DNA of 64,000 nucleotides from Octopus vulgaris (taxonomy: Eukaryota), in assembly GCA_951406725.2 (NCBI GenBank), contig OX597822.1, positions 70,804,001-70,868,000 on the forward strand, read 5' to 3'. The notes below the pieces were generated by a model. That model was not told the DNA's origin, made no database searches, and saw only the letters and a program-made list of their open reading frames with translations. The translations under genes and the position numbers were made by a program. Positions 17,899-61,556 of this stretch are shown in pieces (the stretch's first letter is position 1; each line of letters starts with the position of its first letter).

Positions 17899-17950
<52 letters not shown>
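17625..17950. repeat. (TA)/(TG)/(CA) compound microsatellite
   Basis: Direct reading. Confidence 0.95.
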
Positions 17951-17952
<2 letters not shown>

Positions 17953-18258
17953 CGTTTGTGTCTTGGGGCAAGGGGTGATTGTTAAGTGTTAGTTGTTTCA
18001 AAGAACGCAAAAGATCAATTTTTTTTTTCTCCCCGTCCATTTAGAAGTCTTACTGACAAGCAATAGTTTTTGATAACCCTATCAAGCAGAGTTTGAGGTG
18101 GGGGAGGGGAAGGGTTTGAAAAGAAAGAAAATCTACAAATAACCGGGAAAAAAAAGAAAACAACCCCCTCCTTCTCTGTTCATTTACCTCATCTTCTACA
18201 TTATTGAATGTCCACCTCTAGTTGTATAACGTGCTGTTTCCTTTTTCTCCTCTTGTAG

Positions 18259-18324
18259 TATCGGGGTACTCACGACAATGTGGCCACTCAGCAAAGTGGT
18301 AGCATAACATTCTACGTGAACCAG
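18259..18324 (+). CDS. msn: Candidate alternative (cassette) coding exon of the same gene: YRGTHDNVATQQSGSITFYVNQ
   Basis: Acceptor tttcctttttctcctcttgtag; donor CAG|gtaaac; 66 nt. Only the phase-0 frame is open, matching the phase-0 start of exon 54166. GC is higher than in the flanks, and the surroundings are repeat-poor. No homology recognised. Confidence 0.6.
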
Positions 18325-21300
18325 GTAAACTTACTTTAAGGCTGCTCAACCTACCCTGACCTTTAGTACTTAACATTAGCTAAGTGCCACAATTTTTTTT
18401 AAAATCTGACCATCCCTCTACCCCCCCACCCCAACTCGTTATAAATTCTACCTTAAATTTAATAATTTCAAACATTTTCTTGGGCTGTTTTTTTTTTCTT
18501 TTTTTGTTTGCTACATTGGTGTGAAGCTGGGGATGAAAAAAATCCATCAAATTCAGGCTGAATTTGATTATAAGATAGAAAATCTAATTTCTTTTTTTTT
18601 TTTTTTATTTTTTTAGTTAATTTTCCTTTCATCTGGAAATTATATTCCATTCACTTCCATTATAATGTTATTTAATTATCTTGTTTAATTATTCATTTAT
18701 TCGTTAAGAAAAATATGTGTGTTTGATGTCTATCATAATAGCGTTTCTGCTATACTCCATGCGGGTTCCTCTTTTATTTTCTGTTTGCTATTTATATTCA
18801 GATTATTGCTGCTAACTTAGCTATAGCAGCATCAAAGTTAGTCAAAGTTCAATACTGGTTATAGATTTCCCTCTTGTAAAAAAACCCCACCATTTTGTCA
18901 GCTATATATCAAATGGGTATCGTTTTAATGTTTCTTTCCTCTTGTTGTTACTTTCTGCATAACAGAGAGAGATTTATATGTCTTACATAGAACTTGTGGA
19001 AATTATAACTTTCTTGTAATGCAGGCATTGAAAACAGGCTGGCTCCACATGGAAAGTGCTTACTTTTTGAAATTATTCCAAGGCTAGTGTGAAGGGCGTA
19101 AAACAGGCTCCTGTTATTAGATTTTTGAATTTTAAAGCAGTTCTTCTATTGTTGGTTCTCCAAACAGTCTTTAATCTATGTTAAAGAATATTTTCCTGCT
19201 GTCTCCCAGTATCTGTCAACCTTACATTTCTACATTATTGTGAAACTAACATAGGAAATGGACAGTTTTGTAGAGAACACATGGTTATTATGGCTGCTCC
19301 ATACTCTAATTACTAGGAATATTTGATTTAAATAGAAAAGAAAAATTCTGAATATTTTCCTCAACCAACAAGTGTATTAGTTGCAAATGTAGTATTGATT
19401 GCTATATCATAAACATTTTTTCCCTCTATCTAATGTAGGAAATGCAAAATAGAATTTCTATTTTCTCTTATTGCTACTTTCTGTTTTTTTTTTCCTCCTT
19501 GCCATATTTTACTGATGTATATATTTTTTCATATCGTTTTCCACATACACACACATTTTAAATATTTTTTCTATTCCCATTATCTTGTTTCCATGAGAAT
19601 GCATATCTATGCTGGTTGATCTCCATTCTAGGATTAAATGAGATAAAATCAATATATAGATTCTCAACTTACTCCTCTGAGATATTTCATGGTCATATAA
19701 ACAACAACAACTACATCACACAGACACACACAATAACAGAAACCAAACATAAGAAAAATAAGAGGGGTGAGGTGAAGACGGTGCAGGGTGGTGGTCTAGT
19801 TATTGTTAAGTTGCAACTGCATTTAGTGTATTTGGTAGGAAGCTATGTGAAAAGTCTATTTGCAAAAGAAGCAGTTTGCCGATCTTTGCAACTCATATCA
19901 TGTTACAGAATATTTTGCATTAGCTTGTCGTTTGGCTTTTACTTAATAACAAAGTTCATTAATGATCTTATTGATCGATCTATCGATTGCCATTTTAAAA
20001 AAAAAAAAAAAAAATTAAAAAAAATTTTTTTTTTCCTCTTCATTCTTTTCCTAACATAAATATTGGTTTTGGCTACTTAGTTTTTAATAATATTATTTAT
20101 TTTGAAATGCAGTAAATATTGTTGTATGCAACTGACTGGTAACTTGATGCTAAATGCTTCATGTTATACATGTCAACTTTGAGTCAGATTTCTCTGCGGA
20201 TCAGCGCTGGATATGTTTCAACTAAAATCCATGTTATATGCAACTAGTATCAAAACCTTAGAGTGTACATGACCAACAGCACTGCAGTTCTTGAGAACTG
20301 TTTATATGTCAGAAGATTAAACCATACTAAGTTACTTTTGACTATGACAACAAAAATCAACTCTTCATATTTCTCTACTGTTATAAGAAGCAGATTTGTT
20401 GTTGGAATTTTAAAGAAAACATATTCTACTAGTACTGTATTAGTATCAAGTTAGATATGCTGGGTTGATGGTATTTCCCTTCCCTCCCCTCTCTCTCTCT
20501 CTCTCCCTCCCTCTGTCCCTGTATTTATTTGTGCATATGTGTATATATGTAGACACACATTCACATATACCCATATATATACATACTCTCATGTACATGC
20601 TCATGCATACAAGCATATTTAAAGATATATGTACATGTGTGTGTGGCCCTTCCCATCTCTCATTCTGTACTCCCCTCTTTCTCTAATCTCTGCTTTTTGT
20701 TAATTAGTTGCTTCACTTTTGATATTCCGTTCAGGCCATTCATTTTAGGTGTCTCTTTAGGTTAACAATCTGCATCTCGTGTCTCCCAATATTGTTGTCT
20801 ATAACTGTCTCATTAGGTTTAATGCTGTTTGTCTGCTGATGTCTGCTTTATTTTCAAGGACTCACTATCTTTTTCCTAACTCCTTGAGTTAGTCTATCCT
20901 TATTTCTATGAATTACATGTCTTGGTGCCAACTTAAGTTAATAAACCTGTGTCTCTTAGAGATTACAAAAGATGTCCTCAAAATATATCATTGTACTGGC
21001 AATAGCAGAGTTTCTTTTGTTTGCATTCCATTCTAGTTTCCAATTCTAAGGGTCTTACTATTCACCATAGTGAAGTTTAATGCACATGCAACCACACTTC
21101 CAAAGATGTTTATTAGGTTCACTCATCTTCTTTTCGTACACTCATTTAAATCTGTATGGGCATGGTATGTTTCATAATATGTTGGCACCGTGTGTTTTGA
21201 AGCGGTACAATTTCTACAGCAATTAGTAATTGCAGCATCAGAATAGTGTCTAAGTGGTAAACTAACTATTGGGGTAGTTTGCTCTCTGTTGTGATGGTGA

Positions 21301-22017
21301 TTTCCTTGTTGACATGATGTAGTGTCTCTCAGAGAAGTACAGCATCTCTTGGAGTGGTACAATCTCTATTGATATAGAATTTTCTCTACTGGCATGTGTT
21401 TACTACTTTATATTATTTACTCCTTGCCTACACTGCAATAGTACATTATTGTTCATATATTTGTGTGGAAATTGGAGTTAAACATCTTATTACCATTATT
21501 GTCAAAAGATAATAATATCTCGATTAGCTTATAGTATCTGACCATGTTACCTAGTTCCTGTGTAGTTCACTGTAGCTGAGTAACACTTTAAAAATAGGGA
21601 GTGGGGCGCCCTCCACCCAAAATCTCAATTTATCAACAGCTATTGTTAAGTACCATATGGTAAGGGTTTCCAGCAGCACTCTAGCACTCTACCCTCCATG
21701 TAATCTGCATGTCATAGCAACTATGTAACTATTATGTGGTCAGTACATGTGGCTTCTTTTCTAGAAAAACTCATCCTTGTTTCTTTCTTTGTTTTGCTGC
21801 TCAGTGTCCTGGCTGTTGCTGTTTGCTTCCAGTAACATGCTTGCAACATCAGTTTTTATCCTTCCCATTCCCAAGTTGACTTGGTCTTTGTCTGTACGTT
21901 TCCTACCTTACCTGAATAATGACCAATACATCATTCCATTTTATTTATTCTTTTAAATCAAAATTTTGAATAAACATTTGAAAAAAATCGAGAAAGAAAA
22001 AAAAAACATGCAGTTAT

Positions 22018-22057
<40 letters not shown>

Positions 22058-23204
22058 TCATAATTAGAATGTCTTTTTCCTTCTAAATTTTTGCACCAAT
22101 TAAATCACCAGTTACATAAGAAATTCAGCGAAGATCTTTTTTTATTCACAATTTTATTCATTCAACTACAATGCACACATCTCTGTCTTTCCTTTTACTA
22201 TTATTATTATTATTATTATTATAATTATTATTGATAGCAGGAGAATGGGTATGGGTAATTTTTTTTTATATATTACATTATGTTATTTTTATAGCAGTGA
22301 ATTGAAGTTATGCACAGGGCCAGCAATTTTTCATGCAAAGAGGGCAAGTTGATTACGTCGACTGGTTCTTTCTTTTCACTTCTGCCCTCCATCCCCGGAT
22401 TGACAAAATAAAGAACCAATCAGGTACTCTAGCCAATGTGATCAACTTACCCCACCCTTCAAAATTGACAACCATGCACCAAAATTTGAAACCATTGCTG
22501 TTATTATCATTAAAAAATATGCTTCAAAATACCACCAGGAGGGGTAAAAGGAGGAGGAGTATTTAAGAGAAAAAGAAAAACCCAGCAATCTATCACCCAT
22601 TCCATCCATGCCATCCTTACCTCACTGCCACTTGTTGGAGAGAAATGTTGGATTTTTTTTTCTATTCAATGGAAAATATCTTCACTAGTTTTTTTTAATA
22701 CTATTTTATCATGTTTTTTTTTTTATTGGTTTCATTATAATGGCAACTAAACAGAAATATCCAGTCACAGACATACAAAGACCAGAAATGCTAATATTCT
22801 GTTTGGTCTAAAAGAATACTCAATATTCAAAAGTAAAACTTTCTTTTAAGGATCCATGCTTTCTCTCTCTCTCCCTCTCTTTCTTTTCTCTCCTTATTAC
22901 CTCTTCCTCCTTCAAGAAATAATGAAATAATAATAAAAACAAATTTTAATGGATTCTGAAAGGTTATGATAAAATGCCTTAGATTTTCCTCATTTTTTTT
23001 TTTTTCAAAAAAAAAAAAAAAGGAAACAATTTTCTGTAGCTTTTCCATCATTAGTTCTCCTCTCCTTTATTTTTGCTGATGCTTTCTAAATATTTCTCTC
23101 TTTTCTTTCTAAAAATACATAAACACACATAAATATTCCTCTATATTTTCATAAAGCATTAATGATAGTTTCTATTACGTAAGTGGGTATTTTAGGACGG
23201 AGCT

Positions 23205-28800: not shown

Positions 28801-31800
28801 TTGTTAACTTTGCAAGACAAGAATGTAAATAGACTGCCAGTAACAAAAGGCAAAATATGTCGGAGCAAACATGTTACAAGATGAAACATTCATTTTTACC
28901 ACAATATGTCTTGTTCTGGAAGTATATTGCTCTGTCTCTTTCCCCCCTCCTCCTCTTTCTTTCTCTCTCTATGTATTTGTGTGTGTATATTGTATGCAAG
29001 CATATGCACTCACATCCACACATAGATATAAGATGCATATACATACAGATGCACACGTGTGTGAGAGAGAAAGAGAGAGAGAGAAAGAATTGCTCTTTGG
29101 AATGAAAGATCCACAACAGAGTCTATTAACTTTGCTGCTAGGCTACCCTTATAGGACATAAGTGTCTTCCATTCAATGGCTTTCAATAATTATTGGAGGA
29201 AACCTTCTTGGGTTTGAACTGTAACTCATTGTCTCTTTGGGATTAGCAGCAGTGGCAGTAGAGTTTATTTTCACTGTTAATAACCAACCATTTAACTTAG
29301 CTGTTTTATTTACTGAAAACTTGGGAAATTAATCTTCGCCATTGTGAAGGACATCAATATTGTGGTCTTGACCTCATATAGCTAAAGTTAAATCTAGCAA
29401 TGTTATATCAAGATTGTATAGAATTCCCACCTCTCAGCAAAATGAAATATCATTGCACATCTAAAATCAATGCTAATCCCTCATGGATTATTATAAATAA
29501 AGCAAATCAGCCCAACAGTTATAGAAATTTTAGATTCACTTTTAAAATTACTTTCCTACTCTGAATTCTCCTGTTATGGTACAGTTGTACTAAATTTTGT
29601 TTTACACCATTTTAAATATCATTGATATGATTAATATTAAAACTCTCTGAACTTGTTCTTTTCAAAGTGTAAATAACCAATTTACTGTGATTTCCTCTCT
29701 TATTACAATGGCCACATATTTTCGATTGATTTTTGTTCTTAGTTTCCGCAACTGAAACCCAAAGAATGCTTTCTAAGATCTCATTTGCCTGCTGCTAAAT
29801 TTCGTAATATACATATATATATATATATGGTTTCCTCTGTTAAGTTGCTAGTAGTGAATTTGTATCCTGCTTCAAGGAATATACGACAGTACTCTAGTGG
29901 ATTCATGTTTTTGAACCACTGAACCACTGAACACAAATATAAAGACATTAGAATTTGTCAGTTGTCATTTTCTTGAGTTACGTCGGCTGCTTGAAGTAAT
30001 CAACAGCTTTTATTTCGAAGACATTTTCACTCCCTGTGAAGTGTTTGTTATCCAGTCAATATTGTCAATTAGTCAAGAATTTCTGGAAATAACAGCTGTG
30101 ATTTGTTGTTGATGTGCTTCCAGCTAATTAACCGCTTAAAGCTACCTAGCATTGGTTGCTGTACAATCTTATCTTCATGGAAAATAAATGAAATTGTGCC
30201 ATTGATTGAGCAATTTGTTTTGGAAAGATTATTAGATTGTTTTGGTGATATAATGCTATAAATAACTCGTAAATCATTCCCATTCAGATACTAAACATGT
30301 TTCATGACAGGAGTTGTCATTGCCACTTGGGAGCTTCATGTAAATTCTCATTAGAATACTGCTGTCTTCATTTTCTCTTTGTGATTTGCTTTGAAGCAGT
30401 TTGAAACTAAGAACCTAGTGATTGCAAATATTTCAGCATGGTTGGGACTTTGAGAAATGATAATGTTTGTTACTACTACTGTACATAAAAACATTTTATC
30501 ACGTGTTGGCCTTTTGTATTTTTTCTAGTTAGTTTTAGAATTCTATTCTCTTTGCTTCTCCCATGAGAGTATTATTGAACATATTTTGATGTGGGTTTTA
30601 GTCTTAAAAATCTATAATATAAATTTTCTTTAAAAAAAACCTAAATTGTTTAATGTGCTTTTTTAAATGCTAATCTCTCGCGAGTTAAAAATAAAACAAA
30701 ATATGTTTTATAGATCAATACTTCAGAAAAGTAGCTGTTTGCTAGCCAAATGAAAAATGCATTTAATAATAAAAATGAAATTTTTTTTTTTCATTTTAGT
30801 TAATAAAATAAAACAAGCAAAAATTCTTTTAAAAACATCTTAATTCTAGAAAGAAGCAAAAAAATGATTATTAATACATTTGTTTATTATGTAAACCTTT
30901 GTGCTGTCCACCACATATTTTGAATAAGATTTGAAAAAGGTAAAAGCATTTTAGTATTCCGTAAACACTTAAAGAAGTCGATGTTTACACTAAATTATTA
31001 TCGAAAGTGAAAAACAAAAACAAAACAGACGCACACATGCAAAAAAAAACAACAACAAAAAAACGGCAACAAAAACTAAAAGCAAATCAGGCACTACTGC
31101 TTACTTATACCTGAATCAAAATGAAGGGCATTTCATCTCCCATCATATTTCCATAGCAATGATGTATTGGTCTTGTTCAGTTAGACTAGAAATGGTTTCA
31201 TTCAAACCAAAGACATGAATATCATTTTTATTTTGCCTTTTTTGTTCATCATCGTTATTAATTTACTGTGTTTTCTCGTTGTTGTGGTCATTATTATTGT
31301 TTTTGTTGTTCCTTTGTCCTTGTTTGAGTTTTGGTTTATTTATGGTTGGTTTAAGCTCCTTTGCATTCTTCCATGTCAGTCCCATATTTAGTTTTGATTG
31401 TATTCAGTCTGTAAACCCAGTTCAAATGTGTTCTGTTGCTGTTCTGTGTATGATACTTTTGGTACTCTAATTCCCTCTGCATCCATTACACTTTATCAAA
31501 CGTTCCCCCCCTCCTCCAATATTGTTTCTACTTTTTATCTAAACATTTTCATGAATAATGATTTTATTTTTTTTACTTCTACTTTTCTCACACTTGATTA
31601 TTATTATTATCTAAAAAAATCATATTTTTTTCCTGTTATTGTTCAAGTATGGAAACACTTCTTCAGTGCATAATACAATCATAACTATATATGTATATAC
31701 AGCAGTATGTGTGTGTGTATGTATATATATATATATATATGCTTGTATGTGTATGTTTGTGTGTGCTGTGTGTATTTATATGTATATATATATATATATA

Positions 31801-36229: not shown

Positions 36230-37617
36230 TCAAGTATAATTCTTCCATATAGATTAGGCATGCATCATTATATATCATTTTATTTTCTTATATTGTTCAT
36301 TCATTATTGTATGAGCATTAGAAGTAGAAAGTATATGTATGTGTATATATGTATGCATCTGTCTGTCTATCTATCTTGTTTAATGTAGTGATTGATGTGC
36401 ACATGCACACACCACACATAAATATTTCTATGCATGTTATACACACACACACTCATGCATATACATATATACACATGCACACATAAATATGTACCCATCT
36501 GTGTTCATATTTTTTTCAAAAATGCCTGGAGGTGGGTGTTGTAACCATATACATATGCATATTAATTATATCAGTACATGGCATTTTAAACAGATCAACA
36601 GAGAAGGCATTTAAATTCACTGATGCATAAGTGTGCTCTCTCAATTGAAATTTTGGACTGTTGTATCCTTCAGGTCCCAAATATACCGGGAGAGAGTGGT
36701 GCTATTTCATCTGTGTACTTGAATGAATACAGGTGTTGGTTAAATCTTGTCTTAAACATTTTATACTTTTTTCATGTCTGTACACTGAAGCATGTATGAA
36801 TGTTTATTTGAATGTATGTATTTGTCTATACTTATAATGGAGATGGTTGTGTGTGGATACATATACACATAGGTAGATATGTGTGCACTTATATTCTATG
36901 ATTATTATTCATTCAAACATATACATGTGTACACAAGTACAATGAATAGTTGTGGTGGTTACATTTGTACATGTGTGTGAGTATGTATATTTGTGTATGT
37001 GTGAGTGTGTAAATAAATTTTCTTTATGCATACATGTAGGCATATTTTCATTTCTTCTTCTCAACATGCAATACCAATGACCTTTCAAGTTTATGTATTG
37101 TAATAATTTGGCATTAATGATATTCTTTAGAACATTCTATTGATTTTCAAAAATTCTATAAATACATTTCTGTTTTCTTTTTTCATCTCTTTTTGAATTG
37201 TGCTTTGGTATGAAAATCTATGTCCTGTAGTAGCTGCAACTAATAAAAAAAAATCAAAATGCATACTCAACATCATGTACTGAGTTCTCTTCCTCCACTT
37301 TGTTGAACCACTTGTACTTATATTTGTGTGTGTGTGTGTGCATGCGTTACTATATCTTTTGTGTATCTATTTTTTTGTATAGCCCACAGGACTAAATCAA
37401 GAGGATTTGATTTCGGATCTATAGAGTGCTTACTACATGTGTCAAGTGTCTTTTTTCCTCTCTCTTGATGTTTCTTCTCTCTCTGTCTCTCAGTGTGTGT
37501 ATCCATATAAATATGCACATTTATGTACATGTATAATGTGTTTGTATATGTGTGTATGTATATATTTGCATTGTGTGCATATATATATATGTATATATAT
37601 ATATACTCCATTCTTTC

Positions 37618-37648
<31 letters not shown>

Positions 37649-37949
37649 CATACACACACACACACTTGTGCAAAATGTGTGTGTATTATTTAAAACTTGG
37701 TACAATAGTTGATATATAGACTCGATAGGTCTATATATCAAGTGGAAATGGCACTTGATAATGGCTTACAGATCAAAGCATTCATTGTGCCATTTTTTGA
37801 CTAAAACAACAGGAAATATGTATTATGTATTACACACTATTTTTGATAGTAGTCCACTTAGATTGAACCAGGTTCACTGTAAACACTGCAACACACACAC
37901 ACATGTACGCACAGGTATTGTGTATATGTGGGTCTAAATTTCCTTATTA

Positions 37950-38465
37950 TCTTTTAATTGTTTCAAGCATTAGATTGCAGCCATGTTGGGGCAGCGCTTT
38001 GAAGAATTTTTAGTCGAATGAATCGACCCCCCCCCCCCCCCACCCCAGTACTTACTTTTTTTAAAGCTTGGTACTTACTCTATCAGTCTCTTTTGCTGAA
38101 CTGCTAAGTTATACAGGCATAAACACACCGACACTGCTTGTGAAGTGGTGGTGGTACGGAACAGACACAAACACGTGTGTGTGTATGTATGCGTATATAT
38201 ATACACGTATATATATATATATAACGGGAAGCTTTATGAAAATAGACAAAAGACGAAGGCAGGTGGAAAACAAACGAACAATTGTATTAGTATGGCGCTC
38301 AGGAAATATAAATAAAACAAGTCTTTAACGTTTCGAGCCTACGCTCTTCAACAGAAAGATACACAGAGAGAAAAAAAACACAGAAAGAAGGAGAGAAAAT
38401 ACATATAAATGTATGTATATGTATGTATGCGTATATATATATATATGTACGTATATATATGTGTG

Positions 38466-38523
<58 letters not shown>

Positions 38524-38566
38524 CACACATATATGTACATATATATATATATATACTTACATATAA

Positions 38567-38608
<42 letters not shown>

Positions 38609-38810
38609 TTATAAAAAAAGAAGTTTGAAAACACCACTATATAAGATAAATTTTAATTTTCTTAGAGATTTTACGTTTCGGTTTTTCTTGAAAAAACCAA
38701 CCTTATCAAAAATATTTTAAAAAGTTAAGTGTAATAAAAAAAAAGTTCATGATTGTTTCTTACTAGTCTCAACAGAGTCCACATGGTGGTGTTTTGTGTG
38801 GGGGGGGCAT

Positions 38811-38844
<34 letters not shown>

Positions 38845-38872
38845 TATACATACATACATTCATATATATATA

Positions 38873-38906
<34 letters not shown>

Positions 38907-39120
38907 CATACATATACACATGCTTGTATATATATATATATATATACGTTCACACATAATGGGCTTCTTTCAGTTTCCATCTGCTAAACCTACTCTCAAA
39001 GCTTTGGTTGGCCTGAAGCTATAGTAGAAGACACTTGCTCAAGGTGCCATGAAGTGCGACTGAACCCAGAACCATACAGCTAGGAAGCAAACTCCTTACC
39101 TCACAGCCATGCCTATGCTT
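37950..39120 (-). mobile_element. SINE family B split by an expanded internal microsatellite and nested insertions
   Basis: Tail at 37950-38170 and head at 38960-39120 are colinear on the minus strand. Confidence 0.7.
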
Positions 39121-39571
39121 ATTGCAACAACAGAATTATACCAGATTTTGTAATGCCAGTTCCAATGAAAATGCAAATTCAACTAATATCAATTGTGATA
39201 TAATGAAGAAGAATCTCTTAAATTTGAGGAGAATATATTTTCTAAAATCTTTACTCCGTAATAAGAAACTCGCCTCTGCTGCTACTTCTACGCCAAATAA
39301 AATACACATAAAAAAGTAATAAAAATAAAACCAAAAGACAGCAAAAAAAAAAAGTTTGACACATGTAGCAACCACTCAATAGATCCAAAATCAAATCTTC
39401 TTGATTTGATTTCTCTGGGCTGCACATAAAAATAGACATGATTGAATATGCAAACACATCTCTCTTCACTAATACATAAATCTTGAGAATACTATGAACT
39501 TTCTAGTGTATGTATGGATAAAGTTCAAAGGATTTTTAATATGTATGGATAATTTTATATACTAATATATA

Positions 39572-54165: not shown

Positions 54166-54244
54166 ACCCAGGGTCCAATAACTCCGCATACTATGGTCAT
54201 TCTTCCTAACACAGATGGCTTACAGCTGCTCCTCTGCTACGACA
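54166..54244 (+). CDS. msn: Internal coding exon of misshapen/mig-15 (MAP4K4/TNIK/MINK1 orthologue), CNH domain: TQGPITPHTMVILPNTDGLQLLLCYD(N)
   Basis: Polypyrimidine tract and tacag acceptor; A|gtaagt donor; 79 nt, phase 0 to 1. The peptide matches the GCK-IV CNH motif recalled from TNIK ([25 protein letters not shown]) and fly Msn (MQLLLCYDNEGVYV). Confidence 0.96.
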
Positions 54245-54818: not shown

Positions 54819-57330
54819 AATAGCTATAATTGGTGATGAGCACGCTAAGCAAAAATCCTGTATATTTAATAGATTTTTCTGATTATTATTGTAAAAAAAA
54901 AAAAAAAGAGAAAAGAAAGTAAAAAGTTCAATTATTTCCTTAAAAAAAAAAGTTTCTCTTGGATTGGAACTGTGTAATAAAATGCAAACGGTTGTCATGG
55001 GAACCCTGTAGAGGTGGTACATTATTACATAGAAACGCCAAGCTGAAGATATTCATCACTTTGTAAATTGAGGTAGCACCACAGGAACGAACATGTTATC
55101 TTGTTCACTCTGTTCATATTCATCGCCTTCCAATATACTTTTTAATTGGTCTTTTAGACTGTTCTTCTCAATCTAATCATTAATTTATCATATAATTTTC
55201 TGGCCACACTCTGACTTCTGATTCATCATGCACTGTCAATTTACTGTACCCCCCGCATCTGTAAAACCTCCACCACCATCACTACCACCAATGTAATATT
55301 ATTTTCTTTCACACCACATTAGTACTGCTTCCAGTTGTGCAGAAAGACATCTTTTACTTAATCGCAGTAACCTTCATTCTTCATTAGCTGTAATAATGAA
55401 GCTGAAAAAGTCAATATCAGACATGCAGAGAAGGGAATGCAAGAGATGCTAGAAAACAAGCTCTCCAAAATGTCCTAACTAGAAGATTAGAACCAAGCAA
55501 GACAATAACTCTAATTAGATTTCTATATTGCCTAATTTTCTCCGCTAGCTAATTCCCTGTTGCTGTGTTGTTGTTAGATTAAGAAGAGAAATCCATAGAT
55601 TACATGTCAGTAGTGTGTCATGTTTTAGTGTTGCACATGCAACCATGCAACTGCACAGATACAGATATACAGTCCATAGATGCTCATGAATGTCACACTT
55701 GGTAAATCTTGTGGTATTTTCTTGCGAAAAATAATTGCATTAGACTGCGACAAATTCAAGGCAGGCTTTCATTCTTCACCAGTTCTCAAATCAGTGGATT
55801 CATTTCAGCAATTCCACATATATTTTAGATGACAGCCTCTATAAAGATCAAGCTCCATTTTCAATGCCTCCATCCAGCATCCGCTATCCCCCCCACCCCC
55901 CACACACACACCGAGCCTTATTTGATAAGACAGTTTGTGTTATGCCATAACCATACTTCTGTGACAGAAATGTCTCTTTGACTGGTGCTACTGGAGTGGG
56001 GGTAGGACTTTTTCTTTTGTATAGGTGAGGGGTGTCGAGTTTTCTTTCAGCATGTTGTAATTGGATTCCATCACACCCTCCATCCCTCCCTCTCCACACG
56101 TACGCTCACATGCAAATACACACAGACTTTTGTTGCCCTTCGTTGCACCTCTATGACGTAGCTATGAGCTCATTGTTTTGGCATGTTTATTAATCAATGA
56201 TCCTGCAAGCAGCACCAGAAAATTCCTATAGATATATCTAAGCTAATGCTGTTTGAGCACAAAACTCACCACCAGAGTGCCTTTGCTAAGTGGATTCCGT
56301 ATAGTGTGATTAACCAGCTGGCCAAGTTAAAAACTGTGCTCTGGAAAATGCTGAAATATTTCCATTAGTTTCAGAGAATAGTAGCATAGAATGGGGGTGT
56401 CAAACAAACCTAAACTAATGTAACACAAACAGATACATGTATGTTTTCATTGATTCATTATCCAGAGCTTATTAAGAAGCGACATCTGGCTTTACTCTCA
56501 AGGAAACTGTATTTATTGATATTGCATGGAGACTTACAGTAAAGAATATGTGAATATTAGAAACATTATATTCCGGTCCTTTCTTTCATACAGAATTTGC
56601 TAGTTTGGTGTCATAAACTGAACTTGAATTTGCAGACTAGTGAGGGTGGCATACTACTAGATTGCCAGTGTTTTGAACAGAGATAAAGTCTTTAGTAATA
56701 GTATTTAGTGTGAGTATAGCTTTGCGTGCTAATACCTAGCTACTATAAATTGTTGGCGCAGCATAGAGCTAACGGCTCGATTCTATCTACTGTTGAATAA
56801 TGGAGATATTAGAAGTGAATTAGATTATCTAAGAAGCTAAGATAGTGTAAATGTATCCAATCCTAGTTCACTGTTGTTCTACCTGAAGCTGTCAAAACAG
56901 AGATTACAACCACTGTACATTTTGCCACTGGATCTTCACTTGCTTATATCTAACCAGTACAGTTCATTAAAAGGGTGTGAATGTGTATGTGTTGTATACT
57001 CACAAACACACACACCAAATGTATAATGTGCGTTTTTGTGTGTGTGTTGGCAGTTGAGGGGTCTCCCATTACTCTCTCTCTCTCAACATCCATCACTCTC
57101 TCTTTCACACTACTCTCTCTTGCCACTCTCACCTTTCTAGTACTCTGTCTTCTAAAACATCACACTAACCCCCATCTTACAACCCATGGTGTTCCTATTG
57201 AATATCTTCACTAACAATGGTAGCTATCTATCACTCTTGTCTCTTGCTTTACATTCTTCCTTTTCTTCCTCTCTTATTTCTCTCAATCTGGTCTTTTATA
57301 ATGCTTCCCTCTATCTACTGGAATCTGGTT

Positions 57331-58297
57331 TAGGGACAGTCAGAACCTTAAAGACTGCCAGGCGTAATAATGATCCACATCCAAAATTGATTACGTCACT
57401 GGAGTTTACACTCACAATTTGGATTCCATTACTTACAAACAAGGCTGGCTGAAGTTACCAACAACCTGCCTAGATGGTTAATTAACAATGTCTTGTTCCT
57501 ACATTTCAAGTTTGGCATAGATTTTATGGCTGGATACCTTTCCTATTGCTAACCTGTTTACAAAATGTACTGGATATATTTCATCATGCCATCAACACTG
57601 GAAAGGTTGTCATAGCCTCTACAAGACTAAATATCGTGTTTACTCTGTATTGTCTCCAACATGGTGTGCTTCATTGTGGAACCAGCACTAAGAGGTTGCT
57701 ATGTCCCTAGCAAGCTTAAATAATTGTCTGGTTTAGGGATAAGTGAGCCCTCAGATTCTGGTGGATAAATGGAGATAATATGGAGAAGAGATGATTCTTT
57801 ACACTAACCCATATGAAATAAACTCTCAAGTACCAATGCCAAAATAAAATACATTTAGTATATTGTAAGGTAGTTTGCAAGTAACTGAAGATACTTATTT
57901 AGTCTAGCTAGGGACATAGCAACCCCTTTAATGCTGGTTCCACAACGAAGCACAACAATACAGAGTAAACAAGATATTTAGTCTTGTAGAGGCTATGACA
58001 ACCTTTTCAGTGCTGATGGCTTGATGAAATATATCCGGTACATTTTGTAAACAGGTTGGCAATATGAAAGGTGTCCAGCCATAAATTCTATGCCAAACTT
58101 GAAATGTAGGAATAAGACATTGTTAATTAACCATCTAGGCAGGTTTGGAATTTTATCTCACTGTTATATTTCAAGTTGTTGGTAACTTCAGCCAGCCTTG
58201 TTTGTAAGTAATGTGAGTGTAAACTCCAGTGAAGTAATCAATTTTGGATGTGGATCATTATTACTCCTGGCAGTTTTTAAGGTTCTGACTGTTCCTA
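57331..58297. repeat. Long inverted repeat: arms 57331-57723 and 57895-58297, ~170-nt spacer
   Basis: Arms align as reverse complements over their whole length with scattered substitutions and three larger indels (by eye). Confidence 0.95.
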
Positions 58298-59359
58298 TAA
58301 TTCTTAAGTACAGTTTATTTATTGGAAGTTGGTCTTGATTTGCAATTTAGCTCATTTTTGAAGCCACCCTTCTGTTGGAATTTATCTGTAGCTGTTAAGA
58401 GAATAATAATAATAATAATAATCATATATGTATAAATATCTTGTGGCATATAGCTGTCATTGTTGTTGCTATTCATTGATGACTCTTAATAAGAACAAAA
58501 ATTTTCTGACATGTGCAAAGTTGTGAAAACATCTGTAAACTTCAACATTAATTAATTACAATGAAACTAATTAGGTTATCTTTGTTCGTATATATTAGCG
58601 CATCTGACATGTTTATAAGCTACATGTCAGTTGCTCTAATACATATGAACAAAGAGGAAATTATGGCAAATAATACAAAAGCAGAATAAAATGAAGAACA
58701 GAAAAGAAAAAGAATTGAAACAAAAGTCATATTTTAATATTTTTCAGCAAACTTTGTCTAAATTGAAATAATTTCTGCATGTTGCTTAATAAAGAAACAT
58801 CAACTGTTGCGTATAGATAACTTGAGTTTAATACATTTTCATTTCCATTTCATTTCTGATATTGCTGCAAGAAACAATAGCAATGAGGGTGATTTATATT
58901 CTTTCTTTCTGTTTTTCCTTCTTTCTTTCTCATGGATTCTATTATAGCTTTGGTGGTGTTTTTCATATTTTGCGATGTTTAACCTCCTCTACTATGTCAC
59001 TAAACAATACAGCTGTTCTTTAACTTGATATTGCATACATTAAGTCATTCTCCTCTACACCACCAGTACTGTGTAGTGATTGCTATTGTTGTTGTTTTTA
59101 TCTATATTCTGCTGGCTTTCTGACTATCTGCCTGCCAGGATTGTCCAATGAGAATATATCATGTCTGTTTGTATGTGTGTATGTGAGAGAGAAAGAGAGA
59201 GGTAAAATATCTAGATTTTACCTCCTGTCGAATGAAGTTATTATATTTCCCAGCATACACCAAATACAGGTATGTACAAAAATAATACAACAGTCACTCA
59301 AAATATGCGCATTTCAAATGCTCTTCGCTAATAATTGTGGTAATTTTGAAATTCATATG

Positions 59360-61475: not shown

Positions 61476-61556
61476 ATGAAGGAGTTTATGTGAACACTAG
61501 TGGCAAGATTACAAAAAATGTTGTTCTACAGTGGGGTGAACTCCCTACATCTGTTG
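61476..61556 (+). CDS. msn: Next CNH-domain coding exon: (N)[26 protein letters not shown](A)
   Basis: (tc)n-cag acceptor; G|gtaagt donor; 81 nt, phase 1 to 1. Joins in frame to the previous exon (A|AT = Asn) and matches [27 protein letters not shown] of MAP4K4/TNIK. Confidence 0.97.

What the first reader, a model, noticed from the sequence alone, without database searches (positions are those of the whole stretch)
18341..21711. Long-range 'RNA bridge' from the cassette-exon donor to a distal Rbfox motif
Seen: 18341-18381, starting 17 nt after the donor, is complementary to 21638-21677, 3.3 kb away. The reverse complement of the first site is agcta-a-tgttaagtac-taaa-ggt-c-agggt-aggttg-agcagc; the second reads agcta-t-tgttaagtac-catat-ggt-a-agggt-ttcc-agcagc (helices of 5+10, 3+5 and 6 bp). 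Neither site is a recognisable repeat. TGCATG lies at 21706-21711, ~30 nt beyond the duplex. Known: long-range duplexes can deliver distal Rbfox UGCAUG sites to alternative exons in mammals, and downstream Rbfox promotes inclusion. Inference: an analogous mechanism controls this cephalopod exon.
Basis: partly seen in the sequence, partly recalled or inferred. Interest (0 to 1): 0.7.

Follow-up and report, generated by a model that had tools for sequence, protein, structure and literature searches.

The report
Candidate Rbfox RNA bridge in octopus
In the octopus gene for the signalling kinase misshapen (MAP4K4/TNIK), a short stretch just after an optional exon is complementary to a unique stretch 3.3 kb further down the intron, and this predicted pairing likely brings a distant binding motif for the splicing protein Rbfox next to the exon, although neither its conservation nor its effect is shown and chance is not excluded.

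Summary
18341-18381 and 21638-21677 form 29 Watson-Crick pairs (-41.5 kcal/mol), both arms are single-copy, and TGCATG lies 28 nt beyond the far arm, on the side that pairing would bring to the donor. The exon (18259-18324) is a real 22-codon cassette in the CNH domain of octopus misshapen/MAP4K4; with-and-without isoforms exist across molluscs. By Watson-Crick score the pair is rare for a donor-proximal window (1 of 5000 simulated introns; 17 of 1795 real windows, 14 of them long inverted copies). By raw duplex energy it is not (111 of 700). A 3.8-kb fold gives it probability 0.5 and predicts the TGCATG in a small hairpin. Conservation of the arms could not be read; the stretch holding TGCATG diverges less than neighbouring intron (5/237 vs 40/665). 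Best reading: an Rbfox RNA bridge like human ENAH (0.4). Rivals: chance or a decayed inverted copy (0.33); a duplex that hides a cryptic donor or clamps the exon (0.2). Earlier scan notes report similar long-range duplexes at other octopus alternative exons (unchecked).

The parts
18259..18324 (+). 66-nt phase-0 cassette exon (22 aa) in the CNH domain of misshapen/MAP4K4/TNIK; acceptor ttgtag, donor CAG|gtaaac without the +5 G
   Evidence: tblastn of Octopus isoform P0001; 10 listed Octopus isoforms with it, 2 without, 3 lack the region; contigs of 3 of 4 runs splice it to both neighbours
18341..18381 (+). Arm A, donor-proximal (+17 to +57)
   Evidence: one genome match
21638..21677 (+). Arm B, 3.26 kb downstream; best partner of arm A in the window
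   Evidence: one genome match
21706..21711 (+). TGCATG (Rbfox motif), 28 nt 3' of arm B, about 45 nt from the donor along the folded path; predicted in a 6-bp hairpin with 21697-21702
   Evidence: opening cost 1.9-4.5 kcal/mol; pairing probability 0.64-0.92
21657..21665 (+). Donor-like ATG|GTAAGG inside arm B, paired in the duplex; closes an 84-nt open in-frame pseudo-exon 21576-21659 not seen in proteins or contigs
18196..18237 (+). Upstream flank of the acceptor; predicted second helix with 21714-21752 (-24.5 kcal/mol); weak support
   Evidence: rank 98 of 1598 for the 70-nt window fixed in advance, 3 of 1598 after trimming; probability 0.39
21714..21752 (+). Distal partner of the upstream flank, directly 3' of TGCATG; lies in the stretch 21689-21927 with reduced divergence in organism E
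54166..54244 (+). Next constitutive exon (downstream intron 35.8 kb); the upstream constitutive exon lies about 4.7-4.9 kb before the window start (intron about 23 kb)
61476..61556 (+). Following constitutive CNH exon

Best explanation
A 66-nt cassette exon of octopus misshapen/MAP4K4 is followed at +17 by a unique 41-nt arm complementary to a unique arm 3.3 kb downstream, and the two likely pair in the pre-mRNA, which would loop out 3.26 kb and place the only nearby TGCATG about 45 nt from the donor, where bound Rbfox would promote inclusion. Shown: the exon, its alternative use, the complementarity, the uniqueness of the arms and the motif position. Inferred: pairing in cells, Rbfox binding, and the direction of the effect (taken from the downstream-activates rule in vertebrates and flies). 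The same duplex would also cover a donor-like site in arm B.
For: Watson-Crick score reached by 1 of 5000 and 0 of 5000 simulated targets, and by 3 of 1795 real windows as short isolated matches. Highest score among the donor windows of 11 msn exons (next 29) and among the 48 flank tests on 4 cassette and 2 constitutive exons (next 29). Beyond the core, the arms still extend against each other (P=0.009). TGCATG lies on the side that pairing brings to the donor; 42 of 1795 best partners have one within 50 nt on that side, and none of the 17 high scorers does. The duplex forms with probability near 1 in four two-fragment cofolds, net -9 to -19 kcal/mol, and 0.5 in a 3.8-kb fold. 21689-21927 diverges 5/237 against 40/665 in flanking intron in organism E (P=0.015; 0.054 against the whole neighbouring contig). 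Another msn cassette exon has TGCATG 49 nt after its donor (1 of the 3 other cassette exons). Rbfox recognises UGCAUG in flies as in vertebrates (PMC8742874 passages), and an O. vulgaris transcriptome holds RBFOX-like sequences (PMC5736919 passage).
Against: Raw duplex energy is unremarkable (111 of 700). The duplex is absent from the minimum-energy structure of the 3.8-kb region at 18, 25 and 37 C, and UGCAUG is predicted 64-92% paired. There is one motif only, no cluster. No covariation or arm conservation could be read: the informative contig's differences after 21130 were cut from the output, and closer relatives are about 99% identical. All pairs are Watson-Crick, as a decayed inverted copy would also give. 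A non-repeat match of similar score lies nearby without an obvious role (21909-21935 with 31158-31183). The pair was picked after the fact in a scan of many windows. Even conserved predictions of this class carry a false-discovery rate of 10% to over 50% in human (PMC8052449 passage).
Confidence: 0.4

Rival explanations
1. Chance complementarity, or a short decayed inverted copy left by a DNA repair event, with no role in splicing; the TGCATG is one of 42 in the window.
For: E=10 for such a match in a 60 x 60 kb self-comparison; energy reached by 111 of 700 windows; local inverted duplications are common here (14 of 17 high-scoring windows); no G.U pairs; not in the 3.8-kb minimum-energy fold; selection after the fact.
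Against: Position at +17 of the one cassette donor in the window with P about 2e-4 to 1e-2, plus motif on the correct side at 2.3%; no similarity beyond the arms, unlike the local inverted copies (extended score 33 vs 59-446 for the 14 long ones); reduced divergence beside arm B.
Confidence: 0.33
2. The duplex is functional but works without Rbfox: it hides the donor-like ATG|GTAAGG in arm B and, with the second helix 18196-18237/21714-21752, clamps both flanks of the exon and favours skipping.
For: The cryptic donor is paired at 8 of the positions 21659-21667; the second helix is collinear and appears in the largest cofold and at 0.39 in the 3.8-kb fold; human conserved duplexes are enriched on cryptic sites and lower the inclusion of enclosed exons (PMC8052449 passages).
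Against: The second helix is not significant for windows fixed in advance (ranks 98 and 431 of 1598); the pseudo-exon is in no stored protein and no contig; the motif position would be coincidence.
Confidence: 0.2
3. The duplex is an ADAR substrate or editing guide, as for long-range intronic partners in cephalopods.
For: About 40 bp of imperfect duplex; recoding is extensive in squid (PMC4384741, search listing only).
Against: The stable helices do not include exon bases; there is no A.C mismatch; contigs covering the exon and arm B (X5, X10, X13) and arm A (X5) list no difference there, though contigs drop rare variants.
Confidence: 0.04
4. Both arms are worn pieces of an abundant 230-bp terminal-inverted-repeat element inserted in opposite directions.
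For: The element's centre resembles the shared core; 2 of the 4 other genome matches to the core are copies of it; 2117 candidate copies.
Against: A profile of 34 copies gives arm A E=40 and arm B no hit at E<=100, within the reversed-sequence control; extension from the core into the element is at chance level, P 0.15-0.45.
Confidence: 0.03

Closest known systems
RBFOX2 RNA bridge at human ENAH exon 12 (11a) and the candidate bridge in RALGAPA1 (PMC8052449, passages; PMC10790352, passages; the original Lovci et al. 2013 was not held)
   Same: Cassette exon with one arm within 50 nt, an Rbfox motif within 50 nt of the distant arm, intronic duplex at kb range; energy stronger than the -19.8 kcal/mol given for the ENAH core (different method).
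   Different: The human cases were found inside conserved intronic regions and have eCLIP peaks and a knockdown response; none of this is available here. Mollusc host, 36-kb intron, single motif.
Long-range intronic duplexes of Drosophila CG33298, Gug and 14-3-3zeta (PMC10790352, passages)
   Same: Invertebrate long-range pairing that bridges and can at the same time block a splice site, as arm B's cryptic donor would be blocked.
   Different: The passages read do not describe them as Rbfox-dependent; they were tested experimentally.
Exon loop-outs such as GPR126 exon 24 (PMC8052449, passages)
   Same: If the second helix is real, the exon is enclosed and an Rbfox site lies at the structure.
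   Different: Here one distal element would pair with both flanks, and the enclosing helix is statistically weak.

Membership tests
Rbfox RNA bridge | Alternatively spliced cassette exon | tested here: met
   10 with / 2 without among 12 listed Octopus isoforms that cover the site; both junctions in contigs of 3 of 4 runs
Rbfox RNA bridge | One arm within 50 nt of the exon, Rbfox motif within 50 nt of the other arm | tested here: met
   +17 nt and 28 nt; criterion from PMC8052449, which uses eCLIP sites rather than motifs
Rbfox RNA bridge | Stable long-range duplex (<= -15 kcal/mol, >= 10 nt) beyond chance | tested here: inconclusive
   -41.5 kcal/mol; rare by Watson-Crick score, common by raw energy, probability 0.5 in full context
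Rbfox RNA bridge | Evolutionary conservation and covariation of both arms and of the motif | tested here: inconclusive
   Relatives too close or positions not shown; no indel in arm B in organism E; lower divergence in 21689-21927; no intron-bearing ortholog in metagenomes
Rbfox RNA bridge | Rbfox present in the organism and binding UGCAUG | tested here: inconclusive
   Pfam Fox-1_C finds nothing in G000 (C-terminal model, may miss invertebrates); RBFOX-like transcripts reported in O. vulgaris (PMC5736919)
Rbfox RNA bridge | Rbfox bound at the distal site (CLIP) and exon responds to Rbfox depletion | not testable with these tools
   no such data reachable
Rbfox RNA bridge | Disruptive mutations change inclusion, compensatory mutations restore it | not testable with these tools
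   needs a minigene
ADAR editing-complementary sequence | Duplex includes edited adenosines; A-to-G seen in RNA | tested here: inconclusive
   No listed difference in exon or arms in RNA-like contigs; contigs drop rare variants, no raw reads
Inverted transposon pair | Both arms align to one repeat family beyond the shared core | tested here: not met
Described Rfam RNA family | Match at the gathering score | tested here: not met
   8 matches at E<=1 in 17900-22100, all sub-threshold miRNA models on TA/CA repeats, none on the arms

The most novel reading that the evidence does not exclude
One 115-nt distal element (21638-21752) is a two-armed clamp: its 5' half pairs just after the donor, its 3' half pairs over the branch-point region before the acceptor, and UGCAUG sits in the hinge opposite the exon, so Rbfox binding would release the upstream helix and switch a mollusc-wide CNH-domain exon from skipped to included. 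This would be an Rbfox-gated structural switch and the first Rbfox bridge in a mollusc.
Probability: 0.1. Interest if true: 0.72.

Novelty: new member of a known kind. Interest (0 to 1): 0.42.

Why it matters
If true, the RNA-bridge mode of Rbfox control, described for human genes, also operates in a mollusc with very long introns, on an exon kept as optional in octopus, snails, abalone, scallops and mussels. It offers a compact, mutable test (two 40-nt arms, one hexamer) of how octopus neurons or muscle regulate splicing across 20-36 kb introns, and the exon alters the CNH domain, the part of MAP4K4 that binds Rap2 (PMC8203206 passages). Four searches of the paper library listed no paper on such a bridge in cephalopods or on this exon; subscription journals are mostly not covered.

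Tried and rejected
Pfam scan of the 22-aa exon: 0 families. The look-up of sequencing runs listed no holder on record as RNA; runs marked 'RNA?' are guesses and all are contigs, so strand, level and rare edits cannot be read. Organisms B and C show no cover at 20660-21865 apart from short repeat matches, which proves nothing (filter). Organism D shares variants with a run of organism A (21006, 21054, 21448) and is not an independent comparison; 0/316 vs 8/930 sites, P=0.21. Metagenome scans for orthologous introns: 0 loci and 2 intronless loci at 49% identity. Fox-1_C search of the genome: none. PDB sequence search with the CNH-containing isoform: 0. AlphaFold model of P0125: mean pLDDT 42.5, not used and not fold-searched. 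Transposon origin: rejected. A second partner of arm A (score 30) about 57 kb before the window start is treated as chance. Pseudo-exon 21576-21659 and a stop-codon acceptor at 21833: not found among the stored proteins or as loose ends. Lovci 2013 and Wright 2003 were not held, so I rely on citing papers; my recollection of a short alternative insert at a similar CNH position in human MAP4K4 comes from no call and was not tested. No supplements were read; published octopus editing and splicing tables may bear on the editing and tissue questions.

Full report
Gene and exon. The window lies in the 3' half of an octopus misshapen/MAP4K4/TNIK/MINK1 gene on the + strand. An exon 77 kb upstream matches Octopus proteins at 100%, and tblastn of isoform P0001 places CNH-domain exons about 4.8 kb before the window and at 18259-18324, 54166-54244 and 61476-61556. 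The 66-nt exon is phase 0 on both sides. Among 15 listed members of the 25-member Octopus cluster, 10 have it, 2 lack it and 3 do not cover the site; both forms also occur in Haliotis (12 with, 3 without, of 15 listed), Mytilus (9, 6 of 15), Biomphalaria (6, 3 of 11) and scallops (6, 2 of 15, plus 6 with a different 6-aa insert). A chiton protein has it too. It is absent from the 11 cuttlefish-cluster rows that cover the site and from 16 named arthropod rows, which does not prove absence from those genomes. Contigs of 3 of 4 RNA-like runs join it to both neighbouring exons. The cassette is real and old within molluscs.

The duplex. The five helices are exactly as reported: 29 Watson-Crick pairs, -41.5 kcal/mol. 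Each arm region has a single genome match; the core pattern has 6 matches against 7 for its reversed control. An abundant 230-bp inverted-repeat element carries a similar core, but profile and extension tests do not link the arms to it.

Is it more than chance? The nulls disagree, and both are reported. By hybridisation energy with unmasked partners, 111 of 700 unique windows do as well within 5 kb (700 of 1225 eligible windows were run). By strict Watson-Crick score on repeat-masked partners, the first 60 nt after the donor score 33, reached by 17 of 1795 windows, of which 14 extend into long inverted copies and 3 are short isolated matches; simulated targets reach it in 1 of 5000, 0 of 5000 and, for the 28 kb of unmasked intron, 0 of 1000 trials. 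A G.U-tolerant score is weaker (39 of 1795; 197 of 993 for 100-nt windows). Shuffled arm A matches the energy in 1 of 100 trials. No other msn exon donor (10 others) and no other flank test (47 others on 6 exons) reaches 33. A match of this score is expected about ten times in the whole two-intron comparison, so only its place next to the cassette donor is notable. I put the corrected chance for the duplex alone at about 0.5-5% (inference), and the chance of a TGCATG within 50 nt on the right side at 2.3% (42 of 1795).

Folding in context. Two-fragment cofolds keep the duplex at probability near 1 with a net gain of 9-19 kcal/mol; opening the arms costs 11 and 16 kcal/mol. In a fold of 18150-21950 the duplex is missing from the minimum-energy structure at three temperatures and has probability 0.5 at 37 C (no control was run, and folds of this length are unreliable). 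UGCAUG is predicted in a 6-bp hairpin that costs 2-4.5 kcal/mol to open.

Conservation. Only near relatives were reachable. Organism B has no change in arm A on a contig with 3 substitutions and 4 gap letters in about 500 nt, which has little power. Organism E (up to about 6% diverged) has a contig across arm B with 50 substitutions, but the table was cut after 21130, so the arm itself cannot be read; it has no indel there. The next contig, 21689-21927, which holds TGCATG, has 5 substitutions in 237 nt against 40 in 665 nt at 20248-21130 (P=0.015; 0.054 against the whole adjacent contig). 18722-19641 is more conserved still (11/878, P=3e-7). These regions were compared after seeing the data. 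No covariation test was possible.

Mechanism. Pairing joins 18341 to 21677, so what follows arm B lies beside the donor: 16 nt plus 28 nt put TGCATG about 45 nt away along the folded path. That is the geometry used to call RNA bridges in human genes (PMC8052449, passages). Rbfox binds UGCAUG in flies and vertebrates, with an effect that depends on the side of the exon (PMC8742874, passages); that downstream sites activate is taken from the ENAH and RALGAPA1 cases and from recall. RBFOX-like transcripts are reported in O. vulgaris (PMC5736919, passage), while my own domain search found nothing. One of three other msn cassette exons has TGCATG at +49 directly, a mild sign (about 10% by chance, inference) that Rbfox acts on this gene. 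I give the bridge 0.4. The duplex also buries a donor-like sequence in arm B, and a weaker helix could join the distal element to the upstream flank; a masking or clamping role gets 0.2. Chance or a neutral inverted scrap gets 0.33, editing 0.04, transposon remnants 0.03.

Comparison and novelty. It would work like the ENAH bridge; membership is not established because conservation, binding and mutational rescue are untested. Long-range intronic duplexes are known in Drosophila (PMC10790352, passages). Searches listed no cephalopod case and no paper on this exon; one search listed no paper showing Rbfox2 control of a MAP4K4-family CNH exon. Earlier notes of this scan describe similar duplexes at octopus dynein and CaMKII exons; they are unchecked AI notes and are not counted as support. 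Verdict: a real, well-placed candidate of a known kind in a new phylum; interest 0.42.

Noticed in passing
window 18722-19641: Intron stretch with about 1.3% divergence in organism E against about 6% at 20248-21130; no exon, Rfam match or strong partner found. Probably holds further regulatory sequence.
   Followed up: partly
G000:C9:70311748-70311795 (L082): Another msn cassette exon (48 nt) has TGCATG 49 nt after its donor and 7 copies within 5 kb downstream.
   Followed up: partly
window 57321-58303 and 37341-39459: Long local inverted duplications in msn introns (up to -98 kcal/mol per 60 nt), likely ADAR substrates; another lies at about 64281-65131, just past the window end.
   Followed up: no
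window 21833-21990: Acceptor-like pyrimidine tract with CAG followed at once by an in-frame TAA, YGCY-rich flank, and AATAAA at 21969 before an A-run: possible stop or terminal exon; no support in proteins or contigs.
   Followed up: partly
window 21909-21935 with 31158-31183: Second non-repeat complementary match (24 of 27) starting at the edge of the conserved stretch behind arm B.
   Followed up: no
window 18546-18568: Perfect 11-bp hairpin 220 nt after the donor.
   Followed up: no
L012 and L013 (about 7 and 21 kb past the window end); L031-L060: 230-bp non-coding element with terminal inverted repeats and TTAA ends, 2117 candidates genome-wide, tandem copies just after the next msn exon.
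   Followed up: partly
proteins P0167, P0169, P0173, P0174, P0176, P0177: Scallop isoforms carry a different 6-aa insert at the same CNH junction, so the position tolerates several alternative inserts.
   Followed up: no
window 18270-18319: The cassette exon folds on itself into a three-helix hairpin in three of four cofolds.
   Followed up: no
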